From Azolla caroliniana (Eukaryota; Plantae; Polypodiophyta): DNA of 64,000 nucleotides. The position numbers and the translations under genes are program-made. Under the pieces are notes generated by a model that saw only the letters and a program-made list of their open reading frames with translations, was not told where the DNA came from and did not search any database. The stretch lies in assembly GCA_043228905.1 (NCBI GenBank), contig JBHGNT010000008.1:16120001-16184000 (forward strand), given 5' to 3'. Shown here piece after piece: positions 1 to 41,101 of this stretch. The first letter of the stretch is position 1; each line of letters opens with the position of its first letter.

Positions 1-270
1 TTAGTATGAGTCATAGAATCATATTCTATGACACATAACTTATGAGCTTTCACATTCCCCATGCTCCATGAGTTTTGTAGTTAATGAAGAGAGAGGGTGA
101 CTATATAAAGCACCCTCCTCCCACCTTCTATAATGTTGAGTCTTTCTCCTTTGTTAATACAATCTACCTTGCGTATACTCTGTGTGTGTGTGTCTCTCTC
201 TCTCTCTCACACATATGCACATAACACACATCTATTCTGCTACACAAGAATCATACCCGATTTCTTGACA

Positions 271-3400: not shown

Positions 3401-4984
3401 CATGGCGTCGACTATGAAGAAACCTTTGCCGCGGTGGCAAAGATGACGACGGTACGGACCGTAATTGCGCTTGCCGCGGCGAAAGGGTGGCACCTCCATT
3501 AAATGGACGTCAAGAATGCATTTCTACAAGGCGAATTAGAAGAGGAGGTGTACATGATACAACCACCCGGCTTCAACTTGAGCACCCATCTGAAAGTTGT
3601 ATGCCGACTCAAGAAGCCACTCTACGGCCTCAAGCAAGCACCACGTGCTTGGCATTCGAAGATAACGCAATATCTTCATCAAATCAGCTTATGTATGTCA
3701 AAATCGGAAAACTCCCTCTACATACGGAGCGATTCCGCAAGTCCGATCATCATCATCTTATATGTGGATGACCTAGTAATTGGCGGTGAGCATCTCATCG
3801 ACATCAATAAGGTCAAATTCCTCCTTTCCGACAAGTTCGAGATGACGGACATGAAGGAGCTCCACTACTTGCTCGGCATCGAGGTAATTCAGACGCCGGC
3901 CGGAATCATCATCTCTCAATGGCACTACATCCTCAACTTGTTATACAAGTTCGGTATGGCTGAGTGTAAATACGCGACAAACCCGCTCAATCGCAATCTC
4001 AAACTAGATGCGAACTCCGGCATCAAAGCGTGTGAACCGACTCAGTATCGGCAACTCATCGGGAGTCTCATCTACCTCACGATCACTCGACCCGATCTCA
4101 GTTATCCGATCGGTCTCCTTCTTCAATTCATGCAAACACCACGTGATACTCACTTGGATTGCGGTAAGCGAGTTCTATGATATGTGAGCAGCGGCACAAT
4201 GGATTGCGGCATCCTCTACAAGACCGCGATGCCAATACGACTCGAGGGGTACACAAACGCCGATTGGGCCGGCTACAAAGCCGATAGAAGATCAACCTCC
4301 GTATTTGTTTTCTCCCTCAGCAGTGGACCAATATCCTGGAGTAGCAAGAAGCAACCTATCGTCGCTCTTTCGAGTACGGAGGCGGAATACAGGGGTGCGG
4401 CCGTAGCTGCATGTGAAGCCGTATGGCTCAAGAGGATTTTGAAGGATCTGGGCATTCCCATCAAGGATCCGACTCTCCTTTATTGCGACAACATGAGCAG
4501 TATTTATTTGGCTCGGAACCCGGTGTTCCACGCGCGGACAAAGCACATCGAAGTGCACTATCACTTCATCTGAGAGCACGTTCTAGCTGGCGATATCGAC
4601 CTACAACACATTAGCACCAATCTTCAAACGACCGACATCTTCACTAAAGCCTTAGGAGCTGACAAGCTGTGGCAATTCATGGCCAATCTCGGATTGACGA
4701 TCCCTGACCTACCAAGCTTGAGGGGGAGTACTGAAGACACTGTGCAATAACGCGTGGATTACGTAACCGCGCAACGAAGCCGCGAAGAGCTGATGTACCG
4801 TGCAACTACGCACAACGCAAGCTGGAGCACGGATTCCGCAACTCCGCATAAATGTGAATCGACGCGAGTCGATGCGGACTCTGGAACGCGAGTCGAAGCA
4901 TATTTTAGATACCATCTGAAACCGACCCAACTTGAGCTTAAGGGGGCATGTTCAGAATCAAGCTCAACTTGGTCTAATGTGTGA
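431..4984 (+). pseudogene. Copia A gag-pol, broken by many stops and frameshifts
   Basis: Zinc knuckle CGYCGKLGHYEEEC; protease WFVDSGASNHMT; integrase HHCC and VHSDVWGP; [10 protein letters not shown]...YVDD; RNase H ADWAG...TKHIEVHYHF. Confidence 0.9.
1325..1411 (+). repeat. 39-bp in-frame tandem repeat (about 2.2 copies) in the Gag-PR linker of A
   Basis: NSDYEEYSGMYGN / NSDYEDRAGMYAR / NSD. Confidence 0.8.
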
Positions 4985-5061
4985 ACTCACCTTGAGAGTG
5001 AATAGACACTCCAACGGTCAAGAGTCACCACTATGTCACTAGTTTGTATTCTAGCTTTTGT

Positions 5062-5133
5062 CATGATATAACAAGACTCGAACCCATGACCTTATGTTAC
5101 ATGGGTCGAGCTCTTGACCATTACACTATCTAT
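5062..5133 (-). promoter_or_regulatory. tRNA-like Pol III A-box/B-box cassette, antisense in U3 of the C LTR
   Basis: Minus strand reads TAGTGTAATGG...35 nt...TTCGAGTC (GGTTCGAGTC). Cloverleaf stems are degenerate. Confidence 0.6.
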
Positions 5134-5629
5134 TGTAATATACAAAATATTACTTTTATTTAAGTTTTAGTATAGAAAATTAATGTATATTCCAAATTTC
5201 TCTAGAACATTTTAGAAGCTTCAGGACTACTCTTGAGAACACTATAAAAGGAGGTACAAGGCATTATTTCGAAAACCAAATCGGTTCAATGCCAGTCTTA
5301 AGCCTCCTAGCCTTCCTTTTATATTCTTCTCACATAATATATCATTGTCATCATCATTTTCTCTCGCTCTCTCTCTCGCTCTCTCTCTCAAGTGTTCTAT
5401 TCCCTCTATTCCTCTTAGTACTAATATTCCTCTCTTAGTACTAATTTCTTCTTTGTCTCAGTACTATTCCTAACAGTTTGAAGCGATTTTCTCTCCTTCC
5501 GTCTCCTCCTTTCCTCCACTTCCTTTTATCTTCTTACATATCCCCTTTTTTCCGGTCTTCTTTCCGGTTTGCCTCCTCTTCTTACCCCTTTTTTCCCTTC
5601 ATACGAATACTCTTATCCCCCTTAGTAAA

Positions 5630-20790: not shown

Positions 20791-23538
20791 TGTTGGGAGA
20801 CAGGTCCCTCCGGATGGGAAGAGACAGGTCCCTCCGGAAAGAGAAACCCTAAACCGGATGAGGAGTACCCGGCTACGGAGAGCCGGATGGTGCAGAACCG
20901 GTATGAACCGGGTGAGGAGTACCCGGCTTCGGAGAGCCGGATGATGCAGACCCGGTGAAGACCGGATGAGGAGTACCCGGCTACGGAGAACCGGATGAAG
21001 AGACATATTCGTAAATATGTTTTTTCTGATAGTCCATCGAGGCTAATTGGTAAATAGCCGAAAAGTCATATTAGTATAAATATGACTTAGGGGAAACTAT
21101 GAGTTGTAGTAGTTGTCCTTTTTCCTTGTTGGTGCAAGAAGAAGAGAGAGTACGTAACGTTGTACAGAGAGAGAGAGAGAGAAAGAGGTAGCTGCCTCTG
21201 TTGTAACCACCGCCTGTGGCGAAGATCGTGAGTCCGAGGTCGTTGCCTCCGTGAACTCACTGTTTTGTACATTCTTACATAGTGACAGTTTGCAGCCTGT
21301 CGGCTGCCGTGGTTTTTCCCCTAGTTTGGGGTTTTCCACGTAAACCTCCTGTGTATTTTCTTCTTCTTTGTGTCGCGTCTTATTTCCCGTTTTCTGTGTA
21401 TCATTCTAAGCTCGGTTGTGGCCGAGCGTTGCGCATAAGGAACGACCAGTTCCCGTCAAGTGGTATCAGAGCAACATGACACAGAAAATGGACGAATCGT
21501 TTGGCGGCATGTTCAAGCTCACCGGCTCCAACTATTCCGTGTGGAAGTTGAAGATGAGGGACATGCTCGTGGTTAGAGACCTCTGGCTGCCGGTTCAGTT
21601 CGGGGACAAGAGACCGGACAAAATCGACGCCGCGATATGGGAGGTGATGCACATGAAGACAACGGCGTACATACGGTGCTTCATCGACATGAGCCTATAC
21701 AACAACTTCAATGAAGAGAGCAAGGCTCATGAGCTCTGGGAGAAGATTGACATAATGTTTCAAAATAAAAATGTTGTTAATCAGGTTTCGGTATTCCGGA
21801 AGCTAGTAAGACTCTGGTACCAAGATGGCTCCAACATGGCGGAGCATATGAATGCCTTCCAGGGGCTGATACACTAGGCAACGTCATTGGAAGTACCTCT
21901 TGCCGATGAGGTACTAGCGCTACTCCTGCTCGGTTCCCTCCCTGATAGCTGGGAGACGTTGGTTGTCACTTTGGGCAACGCCGGGCCGGAAGGAAAGCGG
22001 TTATCCCTAGCAAGAGTAAAGTCGAGCTTGCTAGATGAGGAGTGCTAGATGAGGAGGCGCGTCGGAAAGACAAAGATACGAGCTCCGACTCCAAAGCGCT
22101 TCTTACCGAATCGGAACGCGGAAGACATAGAAACCGTAGTCCCTAGAACCGGGAGAAGTCGGGGACACGGTCAAAGTCAAGGGGGAGGCCTACTTGCTTC
22201 TATTGCGGCAAGCCGGGACACTTCCAGAAGAACTATCGGCATTTCCGTAAAGACAAGGAAACCGACGGTACCGACTCGAAGCAAACCCCAGACCGGAACG
22301 GTAAAGACCGGAGGGGGCCGGACCGGAAGGGAATGACGGCAATCGCGGCAAGTGAAGAAGATTTGATGCTCATCACCGAGGAGAGTGAGATAAACCTTGC
22401 CGGTGACGAGATGACCTGGGTGGTAAACTCCGGAGCATCGTTCCACCTTACCCCGGACCAGAAATGCTTCTCATCCTACTCAGCCGGTGACCACGGTTGT
22501 GTCCGGATGGGGAATGAAGGTACATGCCGAATTGTCGGCATAGGAGACGTGTGGCTGTCAACACCAACCGGATGCAAGTTGCTGCTGAAGGATGTCCAAC
22601 ACGTTCCGGAGGTTCGTCTGAACCTGATATCAGCCGGTCGGCTAGATGATGAAGGCTACACGGGTAGCATCCGGGACGGTGTCATGAAGTTCAGCAAAGG
22701 GAGCTTGATTGTGGCTCGGGCCCGGAAGGTCAACACACTGTACCTGATGAATGCCCGGTTATGCCCGGAAGAACTGAACGTGGCATCCGACACTGTCGAT
22801 GAGCTGTGGCACAAGAGGCTGTGTCATATGAGCGAGAAGGGGATGAAGAGGCTTGCAGACGACAACCTCATTCCACTGAAGAATGTGCACTTAGAGAAGT
22901 GCACTGATTGTCTGGCCGGTAAGGAGAACCGGACCTCCTTCCGACCAAGGCCACCGACGAGACGTAATGCACCACTGGAGTTGGTGCATACGGATGTGTG
23001 TCAAGTAGAAACGAAGTCACATGCCGGAGCGCAGTACTTCGTGACGTTCATAGATGACCACAGCAGGAAGCTGTGGGCCACACCGTTGAAGACGAAGGAT
23101 CAGGTGTTATCCGTCTTCAAAGAGCTCCACGCGAGAGTGGAAAGAGAAACCAGCCGGAAGCTGAAGGCGGTTCGAGCAGATAACGAAGGAGAGTACTGGG
23201 GGCAGTTCGAGGAGTACTGCCGCTCGAAGGGAATCCGGCTCGAATTTACCGTTGTCGCGAAGATTCGCGCGTGCGTGTGCTACTCGAGCGACCACCGGGG
23301 TCTTGGACTGGGGAGGACGTTCGCGGAATTATCGACGCTAGATGACGATCAATGTAAGATTAGACGGAATTTGTTCACTTGAGAAGAAGAAAAATTGTAC
23401 ACTTGAGAAGTAGAAAAATATGAAGAAGATAAAGACAAATTTTATATTGATGATAATGGTGTTGGTGATATCACATATTGAGCCCCCCTTACACAAGCCC
23501 AACTAGAGGCTTTTATAGGTCTTTCCATGCTCGTGACA

Positions 23539-23630
23539 TGCACAAAACCATGGGCTAAAACCATGGTTTTGTGCACACGGTTTTGCTTATGTCATGCACA
23601 AACCATGGTTTTAGCCCATGGTTTTGTGCA
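23539..23630. repeat. Inverted repeat with about 36-bp arms, made of AAACCATGGTTT palindromes, in the I LTR
   Basis: TGCACAAAACCATGGGCTAAAACCATGGTTTTGTGCA ... TGCACAAACCATGGTTTTAGCCCATGGTTTTGTGCA. Confidence 0.9.
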
Positions 23631-23699
23631 CATGGTTTTCTATGGTTGTTTCGTCTATAATTTGTATATGAAAAGGAAATACATAAAATCTACACTATA

Positions 23700-23770
23700 T
23701 GATAGTTGTCCTAGTGGTAAGGCAATTATCTTGTATCTTAGAGGTGCAAGGTTCAAACCTTGCTTGCACC
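23700..23770 (+). promoter_or_regulatory. tRNA-like Pol III cassette, antisense in U3 of the I LTR (second copy about 26571-26641)
   Basis: TGTCCTAGTGGTAAGG...GCAAGGTTCAAACCTTGC, with an intact T-arm-like hairpin. Confidence 0.65.
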
Positions 23771-23853
23771 CCTCTGTATGAACTCAAGTGCCACTAGGCT
23801 AGGTTTATTTGCTAAGTGCATGTGCAATGTTGCACATCCTTGGTTTATTCGTC

Positions 23854-26079
23854 TCACTCGGTTTCACACCGTAGCCGAAAATCGTCACGACATCCACCCC
23901 CACCAAACCCGCACATCCTCCGGTATGTGCCGAGAAAGGTGAAGAGGTGAGATCTTTGGCAACGGTGATCAACCGAGTTCCTCTGCACGCTCGTCGACTT
24001 CGTCTTCCACTTCGAGTATGCGCAATCTTTCCAACCGAACCACCGTAGCCACCCGATCCACCATATCCGGCGCTCACACCTTCTTCCCCGATCGGTTGTA
24101 GTAGATCTACCGAACGATGCCGTCGATACGACCGCTCTTCCTTCATCCACCGCGCGTCTCCTTCGATTGGACTCCTGACCACTCCTCACGCTCACCGTCT
24201 TCAACTGGGTATTGTAGATCGTTCGTGTCGATCTCCGATTAGGCCGGGTTTGCCCTTGTCCGGATCGGTCTCCACCGATCGCTTCTTGGCTTGGTTGGCC
24301 TTCGTCTGCATTCACATTTCGCCGAGTCGGGCTCGACCGATTGATTCTGGCTGGATCGGCCCCCTTCTGGATCGGAATCGTCCGATCGATTTTCGCCGAA
24401 TCAGGTTTCGGCCGGGTCGGCCCCGGTCGATCGGCTCCCATGTGGATCTTCCTTCGTTCGGGTCGGAATCCCGACCGGATCGTCTTCCGGTTCAACCGGT
24501 TCTCGACTCTTCCTTCCTTCCTGCATGCAACCTCTCCATCGAACTCAACCGCAGCTTCATCCTTGGCCTCCACGTCGGCCATATCCTTCCCTCTGTGTAT
24601 GCTCGCCTCGAGCCATATTGTCTCCTCTTCGCCACCTCCTTTATCTTCGGTCTTATGTCGACACACGGTCTCGACTGCCGAAGTCTCCGGAACCAGTGTG
24701 AAGGAATCCCTTCGTTCATTTACATTTACCTTGTCTTCTTCATCGCCCTTCCGGTCGTCCTCTTTTTTGTCCACACATTCTGTCTCTCCGGTCTCACGTT
24801 GGTGCACGTGCACAACCGCCGAAGTCTCTAGAATAGGTGTGGGGATATCCTTTCTTCCTCGATCTTCTTCCTCTTTGTGTTGGGCCTTTGTCTTCCCGTC
24901 ACCACCTTCCGTCTCTCCGGTCTCACGTTGGCACATGGGTGCAACCGCCGAAGTCTCTGGAACAATCGTGGAGAAAGTCTTGACATGGCTATCCGTTGTC
25001 GACTCGTCCATAGCCACCTCCGACTCGATGTCGTTTGTCATGGCTACCTCCTCAATCTCTTCAGACTCAAACACTTTTTCTCCCTCGATCATGCAAGCTT
25101 TTCTCATGCTTGCGCCGTCATCACCCGATGTTTCGTACACAATGCGTGTTCCAAAACATTTATCCTCCCTCGAAGTGGCGTTCGCCGTCCTCGAGTCATC
25201 GGCCTCCTCCTTCGCCGTCGTTTCTTTGTAAGACAAGAAGGTGACTTCTTTCACACCTTCTCTCTCGGTACCGTCATACCGAACCAGAGCCTTTGTATCG
25301 GCCACTTCATTAACCCGCATTTGTTGGGAGGTCTCTTCTTCCTCGATCACCATTCGCCTCGGTTTTGTCTCCCTTCTAAGCTTCATTTCTTTTGTTGGTG
25401 GTGCGTTGTTGCATCTCGTCCCTCTTCGATCGTCCCTCATGGGCCGTCTTGTTGTCGTCGATATTCTCACTTGCCCCTTATCGTGTAGTCGGCATACACT
25501 TTCCACTTTGCCCCAATCCTCGATGAGGCCATTTGCACCATCATCTTCTTCGAGTTTGAGGCCGATCGCCATCCTTTCCATTCGATCGATTGACTTCACG
25601 AACATAAGGACCTTATCGACCCCCACCAATCTTTGTTCCCGCTCCGACAATTGAGAAAAATGATGCTCGAAGTCTACGAATGCTTGTGTCGCACCTTGGT
25701 GGGTCTTCGCTGATGTCACCCATTGGTCGAAGTTGTGTCGATCTTGTCCCTTCAGTCTCTCATAGCCATATTCCTCCAATAGAGCCTTCTCGAAAGTCGC
25801 CCACGAATCATGAGCTTCTAGAAGCTTTGTTACATCTTTGAAGATCGGTTGAGACACCACCCGACAAAAGTACTCTAGCCTCATAGCTTTGTCCACACCT
25901 CTTGAATCCATCTCCGCATTGTAGACTTTTAGGAAACTTTGGACTTCGGCACCGTTGAAATAGCTCATTCGTTCGACTACCTTGTCGACGGCTTGTTGGG
26001 CTTCATTTCTTCTTTTCCCTTCTATCAGAAACTCCATCATCCTTTTTGACATTGCCTCCATGAGATATTCGACATCCAT
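23854..26079 (-). CDS. 741-aa ORF: Gag capsid-like N-terminus plus acidic/charged repetitive tail; no PR, RT, RH or INT
   Basis: N-terminus (FNGAEVQSFLKVYNAEM...DKVLMFVKSID) aligns by eye with D Gag (FNGKDVSRYLQDYKAEM...DKVIMFLRAV). Repeats of the form PETSAV..QRETGETE. Confidence 0.8.
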   Translation of the reverse strand: MDVEYLMEAMSKRMMEFLIEGKRRNEAQQAVDKVVERMSYFNGAEVQSFLKVYNAEMDSRGVDKAMRLEYFCRVVSQPIFKDVTKLLEAHDSWATFEKALLEEYGYERLKGQDRHNFDQWVTSAKTHQGATQAFVDFEHHFSQLSEREQRLVGVDKVLMFVKSIDRMERMAIGLKLEEDDGANGLIEDWGKVESVCRLHDKGQVRISTTTRRPMRDDRRGTRCNNAPPTKEMKLRRETKPRRMVIEEEETSQQMRVNEVADTKALVRYDGTEREGVKEVTFLSYKETTAKEEADDSRTANATSREDKCFGTRIVYETSGDDGASMRKACMIEGEKVFESEEIEEVAMTNDIESEVAMDESTTDSHVKTFSTIVPETSAVAPMCQRETGETEGGDGKTKAQHKEEEDRGRKDIPTPILETSAVVHVHQRETGETECVDKKEDDRKGDEEDKVNVNERRDSFTLVPETSAVETVCRHKTEDKGGGEEETIWLEASIHRGKDMADVEAKDEAAVEFDGEVACRKEGRVENRLNRKTIRSGFRPERRKIHMGADRPGPTRPKPDSAKIDRTIPIQKGADPARINRSSPTRRNVNADEGQPSQEAIGGDRSGQGQTRPNRRSTRTIYNTQLKTVSVRSGQESNRRRRAVDEGRAVVSTASFGRSTTTDRGRRCERRIWWIGWLRWFGWKDCAYSKWKTKSTSVQRNSVDHRCQRSHLFTFLGTYRRMCGFGGGGCRDDFRLRCETE

Positions 26080-26100
26080 CTTCGTCCTCCCCTGTTGCTC

Positions 26101-26118
26101 TTCACGTCGGGTTCACCA
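26101..26118 (-). promoter_or_regulatory. PBS complementary to the 3' end of plant cytosolic tRNA-Trp (element I)
   Basis: Plus strand TTCACGTCGGGTTCACCA matches the tRNA-Trp 3' end as I recall it; 5 nt from the LTR. Confidence 0.8.
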
Positions 26119-29100
26119 AATGATGTCGCGAAGATTCGCGCGTGCGTGTGCTACTCGAGCGACCACCGGGGTCTTGGACTGGGGAGGACGTTCGCGGAAT
26201 TATCGACGCTAGATGACGATCAATGTAAGATTAGACGGAATTTGTTCACTTGAGAAGAAGAAAAATTGTACACTTGAGAAGTAGAAAAATATGAAGAAGA
26301 TAAAGACAAATTTTATATTGATGATAATGGTGTTGGTGATATCACATATTGAGCCCCCCTTACACAAGCCCAACTAGAGGCTTTTATAGGTCTTTCCATG
26401 CTCGTGACATGCACAAAACCATGGGCTAAAACCATGGTTTTGTGCACACGGTTTTGCTTATGTCATGCACAAACCATGGTTTTAGCCCATGGTTTTGTGC
26501 ACATGGTTTTCTATGGTTGTTTCGTCTATAATTTGTATATGAAAAGGAAATACATAAAATCTACACTATATGATAGTTGTCCTAGTGGTAAGGCAATTAT
26601 CTTGTATCTTAGAGGTGCAAGGTTCAAACCTTGCTTGCACCCCTCTGTATGAACTCAAGTGCCACTAGGCTAGGTTTATTTGCTAAGTGCATGTGCAATG
26701 TTGCACATCCTTGGTTTATTCGTCTCACTCGGTTTCACACCGTAGCCGAAAATCGTCACGACACCGTGCCGAAGCACCGGAACTAAACGGGCTGACCGAG
26801 AGGATGAACCGGACCATAATGGAGAGGGTCCGGAGTATGCTAGCGCATGCAAAACTACCCAAGAAGTTTTGGGCTGAGGCATTGTCGACGGCGACATACG
26901 TGATAAACATATCACCCTCAGTACCCTTGGACGGAGACGCGCCACAGAGAGTATGGACCGGTAAGGAAGTGTCCTACCGGCATCTGAAGGTGTTCGGGTG
27001 TCTCGCGTACGTGCATGTAGCAAAGGACCGGAGAGGAAAGTTAGATTCAAAGACCCGGCCATGCATATTCCTGGGTTACGGTGACGATGAGATCGGCTAC
27101 CGAGTGTGGGACCCGGTCGACAAGAAGCTATTCCGGAGTCGAGATATTATCTTCATGGAGGACAAGACGCTCGCCGACTGGGAGTCGGAGAAGAAGATAA
27201 TGAACTCCGAGTCGACCGGTAAGGATCGACTCTACGATGAGCAGACCCAACCGGCGAGAGACCGGTTAGCACTCGAAGAACCAGCCAGATACGGTGAGGA
27301 TACCGAACCGGCAGAAGAAGAAGTAGAGGAAGCCGAGACCGGAACCGGCCTAGACCCTGAATCGGATTCGGATGAAGAGCAAATGGAGGAGCCGGCTACC
27401 GAAGCCCAAAGACGGAGATATCCTCTCAGAGAGAGAAGGCCCCCCCGGAGATTTCCGGATGCAGAGCATGTTCTGCTGACCAATGAAGGGGAGCCGGAAA
27501 GCTTCAAAGAAGCGAAGGATGACACCCACAACCGAAAATGGTTAAGTGCCATGCAGGACGAGATGGATTCCCTGCATGAGAACCATACGTACGAATTGGT
27601 GGAGTTGCCGAAAGGAAAGCGGGCACTCCGGAACAAGTGGGTGTACAAGTTGAAACCGGGAGATGCCGGAAACCCCCCGAGATACAAAGCCAAGATCGTG
27701 GTGAAGGGGTTCCAGCAGAAGAAGGGAATGGACTTCGACGAGATATTTGCCCCGGTAGTAAAGATGACCTCCATCCGGACGGTGTTGAGTATAGCGGCAA
27801 GCATGGACCTTGAGGTAGAGCAGTTGGACGTGAAGACGACATTCCTTCACGGTGACCTCGAAGAGGAGATCTACATGCAGCAACCGGAAGGATTCGTGGA
27901 GAAAGGGAAGGAGCACCTGGTATGCCGGTTGAAGAAGAGCCTGTACGGACTGAAGCAGGCTCCCCGTCAATGGTACCGGAAGTTCGACTCCTTCATGACC
28001 GATCAAGGGTACCACAAGACGCAGGCCGATCACTGCGTGTTTGTGAAGAAGTTTGAAGGAGGCGACTTCCTGATACTCCTTCTGTACGTGGATGACATGT
28101 TGATCATCGGACGTGACCAAGTCAAAATACGGATGCTGAAGAAGGTTCTCAACCGGACCTTCTCAATGAAAGACTTGGGTCCGGCAAGACAGATGTTGGG
28201 GATGCACATCATCCGGAACCGGTCAGCGAAGCAATTATGGCTGTCACAGGAGAAGTATGTGACAAAGGTGCTTCACTGGTTCAACATGTCAGAAGCGAAA
28301 CCGGTTGGATCGACACTTCCGGCAAACTGCAGGCTATCCGGCAAGCAAAGCCCGAAGACGAAAGCAAAGAAGGCGGATATGATGAAGATCCCATATGCCT
28401 CTGCCGTCGGGAGCTTGATGTAAGCAATGGTTTGTACTCGACCGGATATAGGATACGCAGTCGGAGTGGTGAGCCCGTTCATGAGTAATCCCGACAAGGA
28501 GCACTGGAACGCGGTCAAATGGATACTCCGGTATTTGAAGGGCACTTCAAATATGTGTCTCCGATTCGGCTCCGGAAAACCTCAACTGGACGGTTTCACC
28601 GATTCGGACATGTCGGCTGATGTGGATACCAGCCGGTCTACATCCGGGTATGTGATGACATATGCAGGGGGAGCTGTTTCGTGGCAGTCGAGGTTGCAGA
28701 AGACGGTTGCATTGTCAACCACGGAGGCGGAGTACATGGCAGCGGTGGAGGCCGGCAAGGAAATATTATGGATGAAGGACTTCATCGGAGAGCTCGGTAT
28801 CCGGCAAGAGGAATACCGACTCTATTGCGACAATCAAAGTGCCATCCACCTTGCTAAGAATGCGGCCTACCATTCCCGGACGAAGCATATCCAACGGAGG
28901 TATCACTGGATTCGGGAAAGAGTAGATGACCAGGAGTTTGCACTGACGAAGATTCACACGGCCGAGAACGGATCAGATATGTTGACCAAAGTGCTGACAC
29001 CCGACAAGCTGGATGAATGTCGGAAGAGAATCGGGTTGGTAAGACACCCCATGCCGGAGTGAAGGGGGAGTTTGTTGGGAGACAGGTCCCTCCGGATGGG

Positions 29101-32521: not shown

Positions 32522-33006
32522 CAGAGCTCCAATGCTTAAAAGAGAAATTTGTAGCACTAGAACAAGAAAATCACCATTTGTTGGGGAACCTTCAACAAAT
32601 AGTGCTGGAAAAACAACAACACGGGGAGCTGACGTTACGTGTACAACAACTTGAAGCGACTATTGTATCACTACAACAACAAGGATCAAGCACTCAAGGG
32701 ATTCACAAAGAACCCAAGATCCGTCTTCCTACAAAATTTGATGGGACCCGATCACAGTTTAGAGGTTTTCTGAATCAGGTACATTTAGTGATTCAAATGC
32801 ATCCTTCTCGATATCCCACTGATGCATCGCGAGTGGGACTAGTAGGCACTCTATTTAGTGGCTCAACATTGGCATGGTTCGCTCCGTTGTTAGAAAAGGA
32901 ATCTCCATTACTAAACAATTTTGAAAAATTTATAAGTGAGTTTAAAGCCTGTTTTGGAAATACTGACAGCATAAGGACAACAATCAACAAAATCCGACGA
33001 TTACGC
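32522..33006 (+). pseudogene. Element C gag, second segment (Sushi/PEG10-like capsid)
   Basis: KEPKIRLPTKFDGTRSQFRGFLNQVHLVIQMHPSRY...AWFAPLLE; continues as RLR|QGD at 39783. Confidence 0.85.
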
Positions 33007-33089
33007 TGTCGTAGTGTAGGTTGCACACTATGTGGAAATTATATTTTTGTCCCTCTGGATAGAAAATGGAGTGCTCGGTGAGAAACGGA

Positions 33090-33228
33090 AGAAAACGGCA
33101 TACCGGCAAGGAGGAAAACGGCATACCGGCAAGGAGGAAAACGGCATACCGGCAGGGAGGAAAACCGGCATACCGGCAAGGAGGAAAACGGCATACCGGC
33201 AAGGAAGAAAACGGCATACCGGCAAGGA
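33090..33228 (+). repeat. 22-bp tandem repeat, about 6 copies, in U3 of the D LTR (second copy about 38986-39124)
   Basis: Unit GAAAACGGCATACCGGCAAGGA. Confidence 0.9.
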
Positions 33229-33278
33229 AGAGCCGGATAAAGAGACATAAATGTAAAAAGAAAGGAAATACTCACTAC

Positions 33279-33350
33279 TGCGCAGGGCATGATTCGAACT
33301 CTGCACCTTCACGTTGGCAAACCCCAACCTTACCATTACATTAACTTATC
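33279..33350 (-). promoter_or_regulatory. tRNA-like Pol III cassette, antisense in U3 of the D LTR (second copy 39175-39246)
   Basis: Minus strand TAATGTAATGGTAAGG...TTGCCAA...GAGTTCGAATC, with a T5 run about 20 nt downstream. Confidence 0.65.
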
Positions 33351-33921
33351 TTAAGTGTTTTAAATATAGATTTAATACGTATAAGACCTTTTATTTATGC
33401 ATACCTTTATTAAAAGGTAAATCGTGTATTTCTTTTAATATATGAAAAAGAAAAACGCGAGACACTAAAAATAACTCATGCACATCTAGCGTGCATGAGC
33501 CCTATACTTAGGAAAAAAAAAAAAGCAACACATGCACATTTAGTGTGCATGAACATATGAGAAAAAGCATGTAGCTACGCTTAGTCTCTCCCATCACTAT
33601 ATAAGGATGGGGAGCACATTGTAGTGGTTGTTGATTTTTTTGGATTAAGAATTAATCAATACAAAAATTATTCGTGGGATTCACGATTTATACATCTACT
33701 TCTCTCTTAACACCCTAAGTACCAATTAATATAGTATACTCGTGTGATTCACGAGTTTCTTATCTTTCTCTTTGCTATTTACTCATAATTAATCTCTATC
33801 TCACGAACTTCTTTCTCCTAGTCCAAGACCTCTGTGGTTCCCACCCGACTCACGCAACGATCCGGAGCCGAAAGGCACGACACAAGTTGGTGAACCCGAC
33901 GTGAAAACGGGTGGCAAGGAG

Positions 33922-35313
33922 ATGGAGGCTCAACAAGCTAACAATATGATGGCGATGTTCGAACGGATGCTTCAAGAACAACGCACGATGTCGGAGATTT
34001 CGGCATCAGTAGAGCGGCTCGTGCAACGGAACGGGCAATTTAATGGTAAGGATGTGTCGCGATATTTGCAGGACTACAAGGCGGAGATGCTCCGGTGCCG
34101 GGCTTCGGAAGGACTGCAAGTGACATCCTTTAACCGGGTGGCGACCGACGGGCTTCAAGGGATTATCCACGGGTTGCAACAACAAAATCCGACGTGGGAA
34201 GCATTCGAAGAGGCGTTAAAGACCACGTTTGCCATCGAGGACTTCTCCAAGGCAACGCGGAGGGGATTCGAGGATTGGGTGGAAACGTCAGGTAAGGGGC
34301 TGAAGGTCCTCGAAGTGTTTTCGGCATTCGAAAGTCGGTTCGGGAGGCTGTCCGCGAGAGATCAAACTATTCTTGCACCGGACAAAGTCATCATGTTTTT
34401 GCGAGCTGTGGGCGTCCGGGAAGCTACGGGATGGGAGTGCCCTGTCGACAAGAATAGCATATACGCCCTGTGTCAATTACATGAGGTGTATGTGGACGAG
34501 AAACGACGGCGCATGGAGGATGCGGCCGGACCATCGAAGATACCGGAAAGCTGGAACTCCGGAGGTAAGGGAAAAGAAAAGGCGACTCCGGCATTCAAGC
34601 TCGCCTCGGACATAGAACAACAAACCGACTTGAAAAGAGTGTTCGAGGAAAGAATCTTGGATAGCCGGGTAGATTTTTCGCTGCGGGAACTACTCGGAAT
34701 AGCGAAGAAGGAGTTTCACGATCTTCTCGTGGATCTCGTAAAAAGGAAGAGACAAAGTACGGAGGAAAATGCTCCAAGGGTGAATGCAAATACCGTTTCA
34801 ATGAACGACACCGAAGTGGAAGGCGAAATTCCGAACTCCCACTATACAAGGCCACACTGGGCACGTGCGACTACGGAGACTCCGGTCCGAATCGGCAACA
34901 TCAAAGAACCCGTGCTAGCATTGATTGATCACGGATCGGAGATCAACTTGATGTCCAAGGAGTTCTACCGAAAGGGGAAGTGGCCTATAAACACCAACCA
35001 TGGATGGAAGATTCGGGCAGCCACGAAAACGACAGAAGACCTATTTGCGGCTTGTCCGGATGTGACGGTAAAGATCGGGGATGTCGAAATTGACCAAAAT
35101 TTCTTTGTGCAGGATGAGGTTTCACATTCTGTCATCCTCGGCCAACCCTTTATCACGGCTTCACGGATGGAGACGAAGGTGCTCGATAGTGGTGCGGCTT
35201 TTGCGCGAATTCGGAGCCAAAACGGAGGGAAATCCGTCCAATTCCTAACGGTGCCGGCAAATCACGAAAGGAACAAGAGGGAACTCTTGTCCCAAGTGAG
35301 AATGGATTTTTAA
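33922..35313 (+). CDS. Element D Gag-protease ORF
   Basis: Capsid-like N-terminus; protease ALIDHGSEINLM...VILGQPF; no CCHC knuckle visible. Confidence 0.85.
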   Translation: MEAQQANNMMAMFERMLQEQRTMSEISASVERLVQRNGQFNGKDVSRYLQDYKAEMLRCRASEGLQVTSFNRVATDGLQGIIHGLQQQNPTWEAFEEALKTTFAIEDFSKATRRGFEDWVETSGKGLKVLEVFSAFESRFGRLSARDQTILAPDKVIMFLRAVGVREATGWECPVDKNSIYALCQLHEVYVDEKRRRMEDAAGPSKIPESWNSGGKGKEKATPAFKLASDIEQQTDLKRVFEERILDSRVDFSLRELLGIAKKEFHDLLVDLVKRKRQSTEENAPRVNANTVSMNDTEVEGEIPNSHYTRPHWARATTETPVRIGNIKEPVLALIDHGSEINLMSKEFYRKGKWPINTNHGWKIRAATKTTEDLFAACPDVTVKIGDVEIDQNFFVQDEVSHSVILGQPFITASRMETKVLDSGAAFARIRSQNGGKSVQFLTVPANHERNKRELLSQVRMDF

Positions 35314-35367
35314 AGCGGACTGTTGCGGAGTGGGGAAGTGATAGTCCGAGAAGCCCTGATACCCCAC
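35304..35367 (+). promoter_or_regulatory. -1 ribosomal frameshift signal: G_GAT_TTT plus H-type pseudoknot
   Basis: Stem 1 CGGACTGTT (35316-24) / GATAGTCCG (35340-48); stem 2 GTGGGG (35330-35) / CCCCAC (35362-67). Confidence 0.75.
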
Positions 35368-38300
35368 ACAGGAAGAAAACTCTCGGAGCAAAACAAGTAC
35401 GAATCGGCCCGGATGGGGCATCTACGTACACGGCCGTAACCGGAGGAATGAAGAAACAATACCGACAAGTGGAGGATAAGTTACGGTCGGCATCAATAAT
35501 AAAAGAAGACGAAGAAATCGTGGGAGTGATCGAGGAAGTGTTCTATGGGAATACACTACAACGGCTTGAAGAGCTTGCGGAAGATAAAAGCCAAGGGAAC
35601 CGGGTAGTCCCGGTGGAATCGGTCGAGATGTACGAGATCATTGCGAAAATGGAGCCGGATACGCTCCGCAAAGAAGAAGCAATGGTAAGTACGAAATACA
35701 AGACCGTGGAGAAAAAGGTGAAACCGGCCGCGGGACCATTACCCGCTGATAGCGAACAAAAGAGGAAAGAAGTCTCGAGAGATCCGACACTTCGGAAGAC
35801 CGTGGATATCGGACATGCCTTCACAGATGAGACCCGGAAGAAACTTCGGATCGGTGGAGGTGGGTTCCTCTTACAAGAAGAAGAAAAACGGTTTCGAGAG
35901 ATGTTGGAGCAACATGGCAAAGCATTCGCGTTCACATCGAGGGAGATCGGGTGCATTGATCCAAAGATAGTGGAGCCGATGGTGATCTTCACGATTGATC
36001 ATGTACCGTGGAACCTGAAGCCGATTCCGGTGCCACGGGCGCATATTCCGAAAGTCATCGACTTGCTCAAGGAGAAGGTGGCGATGGGGATTCTAGAGCC
36101 ATCAAGTGCTCCGTACTCAAATCGATGGTTTACGGTTCCGAAGAAGAATGGGTCACTCCGATTCATCCAAGACTTGCAACCGGTGAACAAGGTCACGATC
36201 CGGAACTCGGGAGTCGGTCCGATAGTGGACGAATTCGCGGAAGCTTTTGCCGGACGTGCGATATACTCCATCGGGGACCTATACTCGGGGTATGACCAAT
36301 TCCAACTAGCCGTGGAGAGCCGAGACATCACTACCATGCGGACACCGATAGGACTAGTTCGAATGTGCACACTACCACAAGGAGCGACAAACTCGGTTGC
36401 ACATATGATGAACGCGATGAACAAGGTGCTTCGAGATTGCATCCCGGAGATAACGATGCCGTTTCTAGATGACATTCCGATGAAAGGATGCGCGGTGGAA
36501 GAAAAAGATGAGACTATGGATGATCGGGGATGCCGAAAGTTCGTGGTCGACCATATTCATGATTGCGAGAAAGTGTTGCGAAAGCTAGAAGATGTGCACC
36601 TAACACTTTCCGGGGAGAAATCGGCATTCGGGCAAGAAGAAATATTGGTGGTCGGACATCTATGTGGACCCTACGGCCGAAGACCGTCACCAACAAAGAT
36701 CGATGCGATTCAAGCTATGAAGGAAGTATGTGAGTCAACATCGGAAGTCCGAAGGTTTCTAGGTGCGTGTGCATTCTATCACATATGGATTCCACACTAT
36801 GCACATATAGCGGACCCGCTCTATCACTTGTTGCGGAAAGGTAAGAAATTCGAGTGGAAACCGGAACACACTAAAGCCATGAGGAAGCTCAAGAAGACAC
36901 TATGGAGGGCGGAATCACTTAAGAAGCCAAGCTACGAGCGGCCAATCATAGTAACGGTTGATACAAGTCCAACCGGTATCGGGTGGGTCATCAATCAAGC
37001 CGACTCGGATGGTTCGCGGTATCCGATCCGATTTGGAGCAAAGGTCCTCAACGAAAGGCAACGCGGATATGCACAAATCAAAAGAGAATTGTGGGGAGTC
37101 GTGTCGGCGATAAAATCGGATCGGGATTATTTGATCGGAGCTGAAGTGGTGATCGAGACGGATTGTCTTCCGATACTCGGGATGATGCGGTGTTGTACGA
37201 TACCGGATGTGGCTATGCTAAGGTGGATTGCATATGTCAAGTCACTTAATCCGGAGGTTCGACACATCTCGGGGAAGGACAACGCGGTAGCGGACATGTT
37301 ATCGAGGGCGCGGTTTGAAGACGACATAACCGAATCAGATAATGAAGAAGTTTCCGAAGACTACTTCACGTCAGAACACATATGCCGAGTGAACGTGATC
37401 CGAGAATTCCGGGAAGAAGAATACGAGGGGGAAACCTTGATGATCGGGAAGATGCTACAAGAGGTCGAGGATTCAACCAATGATAAAGAAAGGAGAGCCG
37501 AGATCCGAAGGAAGAAGAGGCAAGTCCAAAAGTTCTTCTTGGAAAACGGTTTAATATGGAGGACGACGAAAAGACCGGATGGGATACCACTTCGAGTAGT
37601 CGGGACAAAAGAGCAACGAAACCGGATAATCTCCGAGTTCCACGAATCCGATTGGGCTGGACATCGAGGAACGTGGGCAACTTTTGTGAAAATCAAGCAA
37701 AGATATTGGTGGAAGAACATGTATAAAGATGTCGCGGAGTTCACAGAAAGCTGCGAGAAATGTCAAGTCTACTCCGGGGTCCGACACCGAGATGAGCTGC
37801 ATCCGACATTCTCACCGACAATCAACTTCAAGTGGATGGTCGACATTGTAGCTATGCCGACCGGGATTGGACAAAAGAAATACTTGGTGTTAGCTCGAGA
37901 AGATCTCACAAACCAAGTTGAAGGTCGAGCGCTTCGGAGGAAAACGTGTGCCGCGGTGTGCCAATTTCTTTTGGAAGAAGTGTTTTGTAGGTACGGCTGC
38001 GTAGGACAAGTGATTGCGGACCGGGGAGAACTCGACTCGGACAAAGCTAGGGGATTCTTCGCCAAACATGGAGTTCGATTAACGTTGACAACGGCCTACA
38101 ATCCGGAGGCCAACGGGAAGATCGAACGAGGACATAGTCCGATCGTGAAAGCACTTGCGAAGGCATGCGACGGAAGGGTGAAGGATTGGCCACAAATACT
38201 TCCGTATGCACTATGGGCGGATCGGACGACGCATAGCTCCGTGACCGGTTACATGCCGGCAGAACTCATGACCGGACAAGCACCGGTAATGCCAACGGAA

Positions 38301-38915
38301 ACCGCAATCGCGACATGGACAATACTACCGTGGAAGGAAGAGATGAGCCGGGAAGAACTACTAGCGGTCCGGATACGACAACTGGAGGGAAGACCGAAAG
38401 ATGTAGCGGAAGCGTCACGCCGACAACAAGAAGCACGGTTCCGGAACAAAAGCCGGTTCGACACAAAGCACCGACTACGACCGAGGAGGATTGAAGAAGG
38501 AGATTGGGTGATCGTCTATGATAGTAGCTTGGACCATCAACATACAACGATGCGGAAATTCGCGAAAAGGTGGTTCGGGCCGTACGAGGTTCGGAAGGTC
38601 TTCGACAACGGGACGTACCAACTGTCCGAGTTGGATGGAACAATACGACGAGTGCCTATAGCCGGGAAGCGGGTGAAGATTTTCAAGAAGCGGACCGACG
38701 ACAAACCTTATGTGATCCAAGTCGAGGCCGACAACGAGGAGCAATCGGACGAAGACCACAATGATGCGGGAAGCGAAGAAAGTGGATTACAACTCATAGT
38801 CGACATAAGGGGAGAATCGGAGGAAGCTTCGGATGAAGACGGATACGAAGAATCAAGAACTTCGGCACATACCGGAGGATGTGCGGGTTTGGAGGGGGCG
38901 AGTGTCGTAGTGTAG
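35304..38915 (+). CDS. Element D RT-RNase H-integrase ORF, in the -1 frame and intact
   Basis: LPQGATNS and PFLDD (RT); VDTSPTGIGW and NAVADMLSR (RH); HHCC, WMVDIV, IADRGE, NGKIERGH and GPY module (INT). Open from the slippery site to 38915; first ATG at 35448. Confidence 0.92.
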   Translation, partial: GFLKRTVAEWGSDSPRSPDTPHRKKTLGAKQVRIGPDGASTYTAVTGGMKKQYRQVEDKLRSASIIKEDEEIVGVIEEVFYGNTLQRLEELAEDKSQGNRVVPVESVEMYEIIAKMEPDTLRKEEAMVSTKYKTVEKKVKPAAGPLPADSEQKRKEVSRDPTLRKTVDIGHAFTDETRKKLRIGGGGFLLQEEEKRFREMLEQHGKAFAFTSREIGCIDPKIVEPMVIFTIDHVPWNLKPIPVPRAHIPKVIDLLKEKVAMGILEPSSAPYSNRWFTVPKKNGSLRFIQDLQPVNKVTIRNSGVGPIVDEFAEAFAGRAIYSIGDLYSGYDQFQLAVESRDITTMRTPIGLVRMCTLPQGATNSVAHMMNAMNKVLRDCIPEITMPFLDDIPMKGCAVEEKDETMDDRGCRKFVVDHIHDCEKVLRKLEDVHLTLSGEKSAFGQEEILVVGHLCGPYGRRPSPTKIDAIQAMKEVCESTSEVRRFLGACAFYHIWIPHYAHIADPLYHLLRKGKKFEWKPEHTKAMRKLKKTLWRAESLKKPSYERPIIVTVDTSPTGIGWVINQADSDGSRYPIRFGAKVLNERQRGYAQIKRELWGVVSAIKSDRDYLIGAEVVIETDCLPILGMMRCCTIPDVAMLRWIAYVKSLNPEVRHISGKDNAVADMLSRARFEDDITESDNEEVSEDYFTSEHICRVNVIREFREEEYEGETLMIGKMLQEVEDSTNDKERRAEIRRKKRQVQKFFLENGLIWRTTKRPDGIPLRVVGTKEQRNRIISEFHESDWAGHRGTWATFVKIKQRYWWKNMYKDVAEFTESCEKCQVYSGVRHRDELHPTFSPTINFKWMVDIVAMPTGIGQKKYLVLAREDLTNQVEGRALRRKTCAAVCQFLLEEVFCRYGCVGQVIADRGELDSDKARGFFAKHGVRLTLTTAYNPEANGKIERGHSPIVKALAKACDGRVKDWPQILPYALWADRTTHSSVTGYMPAELMTGQAPVMPTETAIATWTILPWKEEMSREELLAVRIRQLEGRPKDVAEASRRQQEARFRNKSRFDTKHRLRPRRIEEGDWVIVYDSSLDHQHTTMRKFAKRWFGPYEVRKVFDNGTYQLSELDGTIRRVPIAGKRVKIFKKRTDDKPYVIQVEADNEEQSDEDHNDAGSEESGLQLIVDIRGESEEASDEDGYEESRTSAHTGGCAGLEGASVVV

Positions 38916-39778
38916 GTTGCACACTATGTGGAAATTATATTTTTGTCCCTCTGGATAGAAAATGGAGTGCTCGGTGAGAAACGGAAGAAAACGGCATACC
39001 GGCAAGGAGGAAAACGGCATACCGGCAAGGAGGAAAACGGCATACCGGCAGGGAGGAAAACCGGCATACCGGCAAGGAGGAAAACGGCATACCGGCAAGG
39101 AAGAAAACGGCATACCGGCAAGGAAGAGCCGGATAAAGAGACATAAATGTAAAAAGAAAGGAAATACTCACTACTGCGCAGGGCATGATTCGAACTCTGC
39201 ACCTTCACGTTGGCAAACCCCAACCTTACCATTACATTAACTTATCTTAAGTGTTTTAAATATAGATTTAATACGTATAAGACCTTTTATTTATGCATAC
39301 CTTTATTAAAAGGTAAATCGTGTATTTCTTTTAATATATGAAAAAGAAAAACGCGAGACACTAAAAATAACTCATGCACATCTAGCGTGCATGAGCCCTA
39401 TACTTAGGAAAAAAAAAAAAGCAACACATGCACATTTAGTGTGCATGAACATATGAGAAAAAGCATGTAGCTACGCTTAGTCTCTCCCATCACTATATAA
39501 GGATGGGGAGCACATTGTAGTGGTTGTTGATTTTTTTGGATTAAGAATTAATCAATACAAAAATTATTCGTGGGATTCACGATTTATACATCTACTTCTC
39601 TCTTAACACCCTAAGTACCAATTAATATAGTATACTCGTGTGATTCACGAGTTTCTTATCTTTCTCTTTGCTATTTACTCATAATTAATCTCTATCTCAC
39701 GAACTTCTTTCTCCTAGTCCAAGACCTCTGTGGTTCCCACCCGACTCACGCAACGATCCGGAGCCGAAAGGCACGACA

Positions 39779-41101
39779 ACGCCAAGGTGATCGTCGAGCC
39801 TCCCATACGCTGCAGATTTCCGCCTACTCGCCGCCGATATCCCTTGGGATGATCAAGCATTGATGGAACAATTTCGTTATGGTCTACGCAACGATGTCAA
39901 GGATTTATTCTTGACCTTCCACGAAGAACCAAAGTCATTAACAGAAGCAATTAGTCGCGCGGTGAGTTGCGACAACCGCCTTTTCAAACAACGTTTGGAA
40001 TAGCAATTCCAGATGCCGAGGGCAAGATCAGAGCCCACCTACACCTCAGTGGTAGCGAAACCTTTTCCGATGGAGTCATATAATGTGTTTCCATTGAATA
40101 CTCCGACTTCGATGGAGATTGACACTACACATTGTCATGGACCATTATCGGAAGTAGAAAAGTAGCGACGTTGAGCACAGCGACTATGTCTTTATTGCGG
40201 TGGACCAGGGCATATTGAAGTAAATTGTCCCCATAGGCCAAGAAGACAAGTAAACCAAATAGTTGCTAGTTCTAATTGTACTAAACCCGAGTCTATTTCA
40301 GTAGGAATATATGATAGTCCTAATAGTACTAATAGCCCAAATCTAGCGAACAAATTTGATGTCCTTAGTGAGTTCGAAGAAGAGTTAAACGACTAAGTCC
40401 AGCCAAAATACGAGCCGTTTGGTTGGACAGCCCTAGATCTGTGCAGCCCATTACTGGTTCCATTCCCTCTAAGCAAGTTAGCAACGTGTTCGTAGCCCAA
40501 GTAACAGTTAGTACTAAAAGTACCCCTCCAGTACATGTCTTAGCACTTCTAGATTCCAGAGCTAATTCTTGCTTCATGGATAGGAATTTTGCCCAAGCTC
40601 ATCAGATATCTCTCAGAAAACTCGTGTCTCCAGCCTCTGTAGTAGTCATTGATGGTCGTCCCATTGCTTCCGAAAATATCATAGAAGAGTCAGAGCCCGT
40701 TAATATTGTCCTAGATAATCTAGCGTGTGTAGTATCATTTAATATAATTAGTATCCCAGAACATCCCATTGTTTTAGGATTACCATGGTTCGAATTACAT
40801 AACCCAGACATAGATTAGAGAACAAGAGAAATCCGGTATCGACAAGCCCGAGGATCTACTCATAAGATTGCAACCATTTCGCTACATCAGTTGCGGGAAG
40901 AAGGACGCAAGGTATAAATGTTTCTCTTCACAATATTAGTAATACCCTCTGACACCTCTAAAGAGGAGTCCATCGTTCAACTTCCAAAGAAGTATCATCA
41001 TTATGCCGATGTGTTCGATAAAGTACAAGCCAATACGCTTCCTCACCATCGACCGTATGATTGCCCCATCGATTTACAACTGGGAAAAGAGCCACCATGG
41101 G
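39779..41101 (+). pseudogene. Element C gag C-terminus, protease and start of RT
   Basis: Zinc knuckle CLYCGGPGHIEVNC; protease ALLDSRANSCF...IVLGLPWF; pre-RT LPHHRPYDCPIDL...EPPW, cut by E at 41102. Confidence 0.85.
40384..40428 (+). promoter_or_regulatory. -1 frameshift signal at the gag/pol junction of C
   Basis: G_TTA_AAC, 6-nt spacer, 11-bp stem GTCCAGCCAAA/TTTGGTTGGAC. The protease ORF is in the -1 frame. Confidence 0.65.

What the first reader, a model, noticed from the sequence alone, without database searches (positions are those of the whole stretch)
33279..33350. Candidate new system: gypsy LTRs carrying a divergent tRNA-like Pol III unit in U3
Seen in D (minus strand): TAATGTAATGGTAAGGTTGGGGT-TTGCCAA-CGTGAAGGTGCAGAGTTCGAATC. 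It has an A-box, a Gly(GCC)-like anticodon loop, a B-box at tRNA spacing, and a TTTTT run at 33255-33259 that could terminate a short RNA. Three of the four gypsy families with a visible U3 (C, D, I; not E) share this antisense position upstream of the TATA box. I saw none in the copia LTRs. Established: Cassandra elements carry 5S Pol III units in their LTRs, and TFIIIC-bound tRNA genes act as chromatin barriers in yeasts and animals. Inference: a portable insulator protecting the LTR promoter in heterochromatin, or a small-RNA decoy. I cannot verify novelty without a literature search.
Basis: partly seen in the sequence, partly recalled or inferred. Interest (0 to 1): 0.8.

Follow-up and report, generated by a model that had tools for sequence, protein, structure and literature searches.

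The report
Backward tRNA promoter in retrotransposon ends
Several families of jumping genes in a non-flowering plant carry, back to front in their end-repeats, the two promoter boxes of a tRNA gene without the tRNA's shape, and these boxes likely serve as a docking site for the host's tRNA-gene transcription factors beside the element's own promoter, although binding and function are untested.

Summary
The boxes are real. D is a young Phygy-type gypsy element with identical LTRs. Its U3 holds an antisense A box and B box at tRNA spacing, then T5.

Of 33 Phygy-type LTRs (2 window, 31 from metagenome contigs), 10 carry such a U3 unit. Across these plus one copia-context LTR there were 15 strict hits against 0.17 expected. 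All point away from the TATA box (13 antisense upstream, 2 sense downstream) and 14 have spacing 43-44.

Between homologous LTRs the fixed box bases vary less than the rest of the unit (4/36 vs 42/111 columns). Acceptor, D and anticodon stems pair no better than chance. The Gly(GCC) triplet is a minority state, and a copia-context LTR also has a unit, so those two first-reader claims fail.

Best reading: a selected, tRNA/SINE-derived TFIIIC site in a swappable U3 module, likely shielding the LTR promoter. No binding, chromatin or RNA data exist; 23 of 33 LTRs lack it.

Nearest known: Helenus/Cassandra TRIMs and foamy-virus LTR Pol III units. The scan noted similar LTR units before in fungal genomes.

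The parts
33007..33882 (+). 5' LTR of element D (876 bp, TGT...ACA)
   Evidence: 100% identical to the 3' LTR; 4-bp TSD ACGC at 33003-33006 and 39779-39782
33333..33343 (-). A box of the Pol III-type unit (1 mismatch to the recalled generic consensus)
   Evidence: a common variant at 33341 matches the consensus better (27% of depth in X1)
33290..33300 (-). B box (2 mismatches, at its first and last position), 43 nt from the A-box start
33313..33320 (-). Position of the former anticodon loop; the most variable part between the boxes among D copies
   Evidence: variants at 33313, 33315, 33316, 33317; stem pairs 1 of 5
33255..33259 (-). T5 run, possible Pol III terminator (predicted RNA about 91 nt, no RNA seen)
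33351..33390 (-). AT-rich stretch upstream of the unit, predicted TFIIIB site, facing the TATA box
   Evidence: 80% AT, 92nd percentile of the LTR
33477..33584 (.). CATG-rich palindromes (RY-like; name recalled) between the unit and the TATA box
33598..33604 (+). Predicted TATA box of the LTR Pol II promoter
   Evidence: motif call only
33087..33228 (+). Six copies of a 23-bp repeat in U3, beyond the T5 run
33888..33904 (+). Primer-binding site (tRNA-Trp type; isotype label recalled, matches the Phygy entry in PMC6317226 supplement)
33793..38915 (+). gag(-PR) ORF and overlapping pol ORF (RT, RNase H, integrase; no chromodomain hit)
38903..39778 (+). 3' LTR of D, with the second copy of the unit (A 39239-39229, B 39196-39186, minus strand); PPT 38885-38902
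26124..26763 (-). 5' LTR of a second Phygy-type family ('H' here); antisense unit on + strand, A 26578-26588, B 26621-26631
   Evidence: identical LTRs, TSD ACGG, same PBS
23253..23892 (-). 3' LTR of H; unit A 23707-23717, B 23750-23760 on + strand
4949..5475 (+). LTR after a copia internal domain and PPT; antisense unit A 5128-5118, B 5084-5074, spacing 44, best match of the three
   Evidence: does not match the LTR end at 1-270

Best explanation
The feature is an antisense tRNA-type A box and B box at fixed tRNA spacing in the U3 of Phygy-type LTRs, likely captured from a tRNA gene or tRNA-derived SINE, and likely kept as a DNA docking site for TFIIIC (with TFIIIB predicted to load on the AT-rich side facing the TATA box) that would keep the LTR's own Pol II promoter open and shielded from surrounding silent chromatin. 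Shown: the boxes, their spacing, orientation, position 114-254 nt from the TATA box (nearest unit), lower variation than the spacer, loss of the cloverleaf, and co-occurrence with a CATG-palindrome array. Inferred: origin from a tRNA/SINE; exchange of the U3 module between lineages; TFIIIC/TFIIIB binding; any effect on chromatin or on the Pol II promoter. Any short RNA would be a by-product in this reading.
For: 15 hits in 34 LTRs (25,032 nt) vs 0.17 in 60 shuffles; 13 antisense upstream of TATA, 2 sense downstream, none in the other two classes; spacing 43-44 in 14 of 15 although 40-52 was allowed. In three groups of homologous units, fixed box columns vary in 4 of 36, other unit columns in 42 of 111 (Fisher p=0.0016; G/C columns 1/16 vs 20/42), and the 54-nt cores align without gaps while 9 of 13 pairs need gaps in the upstream flank. 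Acceptor 25/70, anticodon 24/50 and D stem 22/40 pairs equal shuffled values; T stem 38/50 vs 34.3, P=0.066, so DNA motifs outlast the RNA fold. Tandem duplicates keep both boxes (L063, L069, L073). In D copies, common A-box variants fall on degenerate positions or improve the match. Upstream 40 nt are above the LTR median AT in 13 of 14 units. All 10 unit-bearing Phygy LTRs have >=4 CATG in 200 nt, against 2 of 23 without. Unit-bearing LTRs sit in at least 3 places on a quick gag tree. Barrier function of A/B boxes in yeast: PMC7990762 (passages); a tRNA-derived B2 SINE 200 bp upstream of a TSS marks a methylation boundary: PMC8136502 (passages).
Against: No binding, chromatin or RNA evidence. 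23 of 33 Phygy-type LTRs lack the U3 unit, so it is dispensable. D's own copy has 3 mismatches and the L017 copy has a decayed B box; one frequent variant in run X19 breaks the A box at 33341. The B box is invariant among D copies but so is 33225-33288, so that is not distinctive. Units were found by box match, so conservation tests are partly circular, and the LTRs are related, so orientation counts rest on perhaps 2-4 independent origins. The same unit sits in the 3' LTR in the path of the genomic transcript, and assembled Pol III complexes block Pol II read-through in yeast (PMC4228148, abstract). In the mouse B2 case the boundary lowered expression of the neighbouring gene. My search for plant tDNA barriers listed no plant study. 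Metagenome contigs can be chimeric.
Confidence: 0.45

Rival explanations
1. The product matters: Pol III makes a 65-95-nt antisense RNA from each LTR that pairs with the U3 part of the genomic RNA or feeds small-RNA pathways, tuning the element's own silencing, as foamy-virus LTRs make Pol III small RNAs.
For: T4 within 35 nt of the B box in 9 of 14 units, D giving about 91 nt. The copia-context unit folds as a long hairpin (z -4.05) and H's partly (z -2.17). Precedent: A/B-box-dependent Pol III pri-miRNAs in simian foamy virus LTRs (PMC3993851, passages).
Against: No terminator within the LTR for H, L082 and the copia-context unit, and only distant ones for L007 and L076. Middle of the unit is at background identity (0.33) across families. 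D's RNA has no structure (z 0.31).
Confidence: 0.2
2. Passenger: heads of tRNA-derived SINEs inserted into LTRs, were copied along by successful families, and survive only in orientations that do not disturb the genomic RNA; apparent conservation is ascertainment.
For: SINE insertion into an LTR is the origin proposed for Helenus and Cassandra (PMC10886601, parts 1-4 of 6 read), which also says that 'not a few' Repbase LTRs hold tRNA-like pieces. 23 of 33 LTRs lack the unit; L017 is decayed. An earlier scan note (e1-9852194) judged a fungal case a passenger.
Against: Boxes outlast stems and spacer, without indels. No free copy in 289,654 nt of loci or in the window: hits outside called LTRs were tRNA-like genes (L028, L043), one unit after a decayed copia RNase H region (L022) and a sense unit in an LTR of uncalled start (L060). 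No depth spike over the unit in run X1 (146-240k vs 160-259k in flanks; depth is a rough measure). No shared tail or TSD was evident in the 14 units (by eye).
Confidence: 0.2
3. Landing pad or decoy: the unit recruits TFIIIB so that Pol III-targeting retroelements (Ty3-like) insert there, or it tethers the element's DNA to tRNA-gene domains.
For: Two unreviewed scan notes report this in gut-fungus-like genomes (e1-10420520, e1-10420559). Ty3 targeting of Pol III start sites appears in search listings.
Against: No insertion junction was evident in the 60 nt upstream of the 14 units (by eye); D and H themselves sit in coding regions of other elements at NCGN sites.
Confidence: 0.08
4. RNA-RNA pairing aid: being antisense, the unit makes the genomic RNA complementary to the primer tRNA and promotes minus-strand transfer, as reported for a tRNA-Lys3-like sequence in HIV-1 U3-R.
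For: Orientation fits. D matches the primer's 3' end read from the PBS at 8 of 14 positions. The HIV paper (PMC2802660) was seen only as a title in a reference list.
Against: Other units match at 4-8 of 14, two of which are universal positions. The triplet is not CCA. The conserved parts are the loops common to all tRNAs, not isotype-specific ones. The whole primer tRNA was not available for comparison.
Confidence: 0.07

Closest known systems
Helenus TRIMs (TRIMp3; Kojima 2024, PMC10886601; parts 1-4 of 6 and searched passages read, supplements not read)
   Same: [quoted passage not shown]
   Different: Helenus are 311-1263-bp non-coding elements in which the boxes are proposed to drive the element's own transcript. 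Here the unit is antisense in U3 of a 6.8-kb element with intact gag and pol and a TATA box, so it cannot make the genomic RNA. The paper's main text has no 'antisense' or 'opposite'.
Cassandra TRIMs (as described in PMC10886601)
   Same: Pol III promoter carried in plant LTRs.
   Different: 5S type-1 promoter that starts the element's RNA; non-autonomous.
Foamy-virus LTR Pol III miRNA cassettes (PMC3993851, passages)
   Same: A/B-box Pol III units with terminators in the LTR of an autonomous retroelement that is also transcribed by Pol II.
   Different: They make defined hairpin miRNAs; here sequence and fold are not shared between families and D has no hairpin.
tDNA and ETC barriers in yeasts; B2 SINE boundaries in mouse (PMC7990762, PMC8136502 passages; PMC4228148 abstract)
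   Same: A/B boxes acting as DNA elements on neighbouring chromatin and Pol II transcription; similar distance to a promoter.
   Different: Host loci, not parts of an LTR; not shown in plants by my search.
Phygy lineage (Neumann 2019, PMC6317226; passages and Additional file 5 read)
   Same: 4-bp NCGN TSD, tRNA-Trp PBS, no extra domain.
   Different: D is 6772 bp, below the listed 7656-9968 range; the passages read mention no Pol III unit.

Membership tests
Pol III type-2 internal promoter | A box and B box matching consensus | tested here: met
   D: 1 + 2 mismatches; far above shuffles. Consensus recalled; agrees with the motifs given in PMC10886601.
Pol III type-2 internal promoter | tRNA-like spacing | tested here: met
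   43-44 nt in 14 of 15 hits; tRNA genes in the loci give 43-44
Pol III type-2 internal promoter | Oligo-T terminator downstream | tested here: inconclusive
   Present in D; within 35 nt in 9 of 14 units
Pol III type-2 internal promoter | TFIIIC/TFIIIB binding and Pol III transcription | not testable with these tools
   No ChIP data; no usable RNA run
Functional tRNA gene (Gly-GCC) | Cloverleaf with paired stems | tested here: not met
   D: T 2/5, acceptor 3/7, anticodon 1/5; control tRNA-Arg 4/5, 7/7, 5/5; ARAGORN 0
Functional tRNA gene (Gly-GCC) | Conserved anticodon | tested here: not met
   Minority state among D copies; loop differs in every family
Helenus / TRIMp3 | tRNA-derived boxes in the LTR | tested here: met
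Helenus / TRIMp3 | Short, non-coding element (311-1263 bp) | tested here: not met
   D is 6772 bp with gag and RT-RNaseH-INT ORFs
Helenus / TRIMp3 | Pol III promoter placed to transcribe the element | tested here: not met
   U3 units are antisense; only the few sense units downstream of TATA (L069, L042; weaker L076, L060) could
Phygy | 4-bp NCGN TSD | tested here: met
   ACGC (D), ACGG (H) (definition)
Phygy | tRNA-Trp PBS | tested here: inconclusive
   PBS present and shared by D and H; the Trp label is recalled, no host tRNA-Trp was fetched (empty)
Phygy | No chromodomain or extra RNase H | tested here: met
   Pfam scan of pol
Phygy | RT/RH/INT phylogeny with REXdb references | not tested
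   Reference sequences not available here
tRNA-derived SINE insertion | Free copies, tail and TSD | tested here: inconclusive
   None found in about 354 kb and no depth spike; whole genome not held

The most novel reading that the evidence does not exclude
Autonomous plant LTR retrotransposons have domesticated tRNA-gene promoters as a portable, swappable TFIIIC barrier: outward-facing A/B-box units bracket the LTR's TATA box (one or two in U3, in some families another in R) and let each new copy carry its own island of open chromatin into heterochromatin; gypsy and copia lineages acquired it separately.
Probability: 0.3. Interest if true: 0.75.

Novelty: new variant of a known kind. Interest (0 to 1): 0.52.

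Why it matters
If the boxes are bound in vivo, this would be an anti-silencing device built from a core host factor rather than from an element-encoded protein, and a first handle on whether tRNA-type barriers work in plants. The design is easy to test: thousands of near-identical LTRs, sister families with and without the unit, and a two-base B-box mutation. It would also mean Pol III machinery has many more binding sites in these genomes than tRNA genes suggest. If the unit is a passenger, it is only a curiosity of LTR modular evolution.

Tried and rejected
No whole genome is held for this window, so no genome-wide LTR scan was possible.

ARAGORN and Rfam found no tRNA in the window. Viral contigs gave no relative of pol and six chance PBS matches. 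Searches for the host primer tRNA gene found nothing in viral or prokaryote contigs.

No RNA holder was listed for the LTR; this says nothing about expression. X18 (possibly RNA, 10 contigs) and X19 (probably DNA) cannot show transcription.

The 40 loci with 300-nt flanks could not be extended and were used only for U5 and gag.

Rejected: Gly(GCC) tRNA; a conserved cloverleaf; a gypsy-only pattern; the U5 motif as a second B box (21 of 116 have GTTC followed by RAGACC, most others GTCC, 56 no match). The apparent 'sense units' in H and L082 were set aside as by-products of a local inverted repeat. L030's sense B-like motif was set aside (partial LTR, no A box at tRNA spacing). In one search L018 was misaligned by one base; one search has the corrected values.

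The careful gag tree did not finish, and no single-clade test was run.

Full report
Setting. The window is a nest of plant LTR retroelements. The best named relatives of D's integrase are liverwort proteins, so the host is likely a non-flowering land plant; no genome is held. Element D spans 33007-39778, with identical 876-bp LTRs, TSD ACGC, a PBS at 33888, a PPT at 38885 and gag plus RT-RNase H-integrase ORFs without a chromodomain. A 4-bp NCGN TSD and a tRNA-Trp PBS define Phygy in PMC6317226 (passages and Additional file 5); I call D Phygy-type because no RT tree with reference elements was made. Laid contigs show that D is a very abundant family in several runs.

The observation. The A box (33343-33333), B box (33300-33290) and T5 (33259-33255) are on the minus strand as reported. 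With a recalled generic consensus, the window has 6 sites at <=1 A and <=2 B mismatches against 0.25 in 40 shuffles. Five belong to three LTR families: D, a second Phygy-type element H (23253-26763, minus strand, identical LTRs) and the LTR at 4949-5475. The third follows a copia RT and a PPT junction like that of another copia family, though it does not match the LTR end at 1-270, so the copia label rests on context. Thirteen other copia-type LTR stretches gave one weak hit at 4 mismatches. All three units are antisense and upstream of a TATA motif.

It is not a tRNA. ARAGORN and Rfam find none. D's predicted RNA folds no better than shuffles (z 0.31). Among D copies the former anticodon loop is the most variable part between the boxes, and the window's GCC is a minority state.

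Relatives. A scan of metagenome contigs for the PBS plus LTR end gave 120 loci, capped, 80 with long flanks. I could call the start of 29 5' LTRs and 2 3' LTRs (one cut short after its TATA box); the rest were too short, looked chimeric or were non-plant. With D, H and the copia-context LTR this gives 34 LTRs. A scan at <=3 total mismatches and spacing 40-52 found 15 units against 0.17 expected: 13 antisense upstream of the TATA box, 2 sense downstream, none otherwise; spacing was 43 in 11, 44 in 3 and 48 in 1. TATA positions were picked by hand from motif lists and L008 had none. Counting the decayed L017 copy (4 mismatches), 10 of 33 Phygy-type LTRs carry U3 units, three of them two in tandem; 23 do not. 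Weaker sense units downstream of the TATA box occur in L076 and probably L060, whose LTR start was not called. The LTRs come from few samples and are related, so the orientation rule rests on perhaps two to four independent origins.

What is conserved. Across 10 non-redundant units pairwise identity is 0.74 in the A box, 0.73 in the B box, 0.33 in the middle and 0.28-0.37 in the flanks; this is circular because units were found by their boxes. A less circular test within three homologous groups gives 4 of 36 fixed box columns variable against 42 of 111 others (p=0.0016), while degenerate box columns vary in 7 of 15. Acceptor, D and anticodon stems pair at shuffled levels; the T stem is marginal. 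T4 follows within 35 nt in 9 of 14 units and is missing from three LTRs. Folding differs: none in D, a long hairpin in the copia-context unit. In D copies common A-box variants hit degenerate positions or improve the match, with one exception in run X19; B-box invariance is shared with the flank. Thus the DNA motifs and their spacing are what persists.

A U3 module. All 10 unit-bearing Phygy LTRs have a CATG-rich palindrome array between unit and TATA box; 2 of 23 others have one. The 40 nt upstream of the unit, facing the TATA box, are AT-rich. On a quick gag tree of 57 fragments, the 5 unit-bearing rows that had gag need at least 3 changes against 14 unit-less rows. L076 shares 42 of 54 unit bases with H but only about 32% gag identity. 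This suggests exchange of U3 between lineages or repeated loss; contig chimerism could mimic it, but D and H come from the window itself and fall in different clades.

How it most likely works. TFIIIC binds A and B boxes and loads TFIIIB on AT-rich DNA upstream; such sites are nucleosome-free and act as barriers in yeasts (PMC7990762, passages). Here that upstream side faces the LTR promoter, about one nucleosome away. I infer that the unit docks TFIIIC and helps keep the promoter open against flanking silencing (0.45). This is untested. It has a cost to explain: the 3' copy lies in the path of the genomic transcript, and Pol III complexes can block Pol II (PMC4228148, abstract), so occupancy would have to be partial or TFIIIC-only. 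Rivals are a regulatory antisense RNA (0.2), a SINE passenger (0.2), a landing pad (0.08) and primer pairing (0.07).

Known and new. tRNA-derived boxes in LTRs are published for Helenus TRIMs, where they are proposed to drive the element's RNA (PMC10886601), and Pol III units occur in foamy-virus LTRs (PMC3993851). Ten literature searches (listings, with passages read for the papers cited) showed no description of antisense, promoter-flanking A/B-box units in autonomous plant LTRs. The library lacks most subscription journals, and Kojima's supplements and Repbase entries were not seen; his remark that many Repbase LTRs hold tRNA-like pieces may cover such cases. Earlier scan notes describe similar units in fungal LTRs with different verdicts; none matched this sequence, and the 16 notes shown for this genome concerned other features. 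Verdict: real, probably selected, a new variant of a known kind, function open.

Noticed in passing
window 33477-33584; 23525-23635; L007, L017, L018, L063, L069, L073, L076, L082: CATG-rich palindrome arrays just upstream of the TATA box travel with the Pol III unit; they resemble RY elements bound by B3 factors such as ABI3 (label recalled), which would give these LTRs a developmental or desiccation trigger.
   Followed up: partly
L063, L069, L076, L042; L060: Sense-oriented A/B-box units downstream of the TATA box, placed like Helenus or Cassandra promoters; in L063, L069 and L076 they bracket the promoter together with the antisense U3 units.
   Followed up: partly
window 5045-5135, minus strand: The copia-context unit is a long inverted repeat (z -4.05) in which the B box pairs with the spacer, like a Pol III pre-miRNA.
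   Followed up: partly
window 33818-33830 and most PBS loci: A conserved U5 motif about 59 nt before the LTR end is B-box-like in some families but not in most; nearby U5 stretches looked complementary to the primer tRNA by recall only, which would suggest extended primer pairing.
   Followed up: partly
window 1-270 versus 4949-5475: The two LTRs flanking the first copia internal domain do not match, suggesting a recombinant element.
   Followed up: partly
window 23253-26763: Element H has identical LTRs but only a 752-codon gag-like ORF with no Pfam hit: a young non-autonomous Phygy-type element.
   Followed up: partly
L014, L024, L027, L051, L058, L068: AT-rich, probably fungal loci share the same PBS with LTRs ending GTAAACA; L027 and L058 have tRNA genes about 2 kb from the PBS.
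   Followed up: no
L028 (about 1070 and 1440 nt before the PBS); L043 1150-1224: Two decayed tRNA-like copies (initiator-Met-like by recall) and a tRNA-Arg(CCG) gene lie in the flanks outside Phygy LTRs.
   Followed up: no
L022, about 11000-11100 nt after the first PBS: A further antisense unit with a weak A box follows a decayed copia RNase H region, a possible second copia case.
   Followed up: partly
window 56186-61400: A long TA/CA-rich repeat tract followed by an AT-rich, broken coding-like region of unknown type.
   Followed up: no
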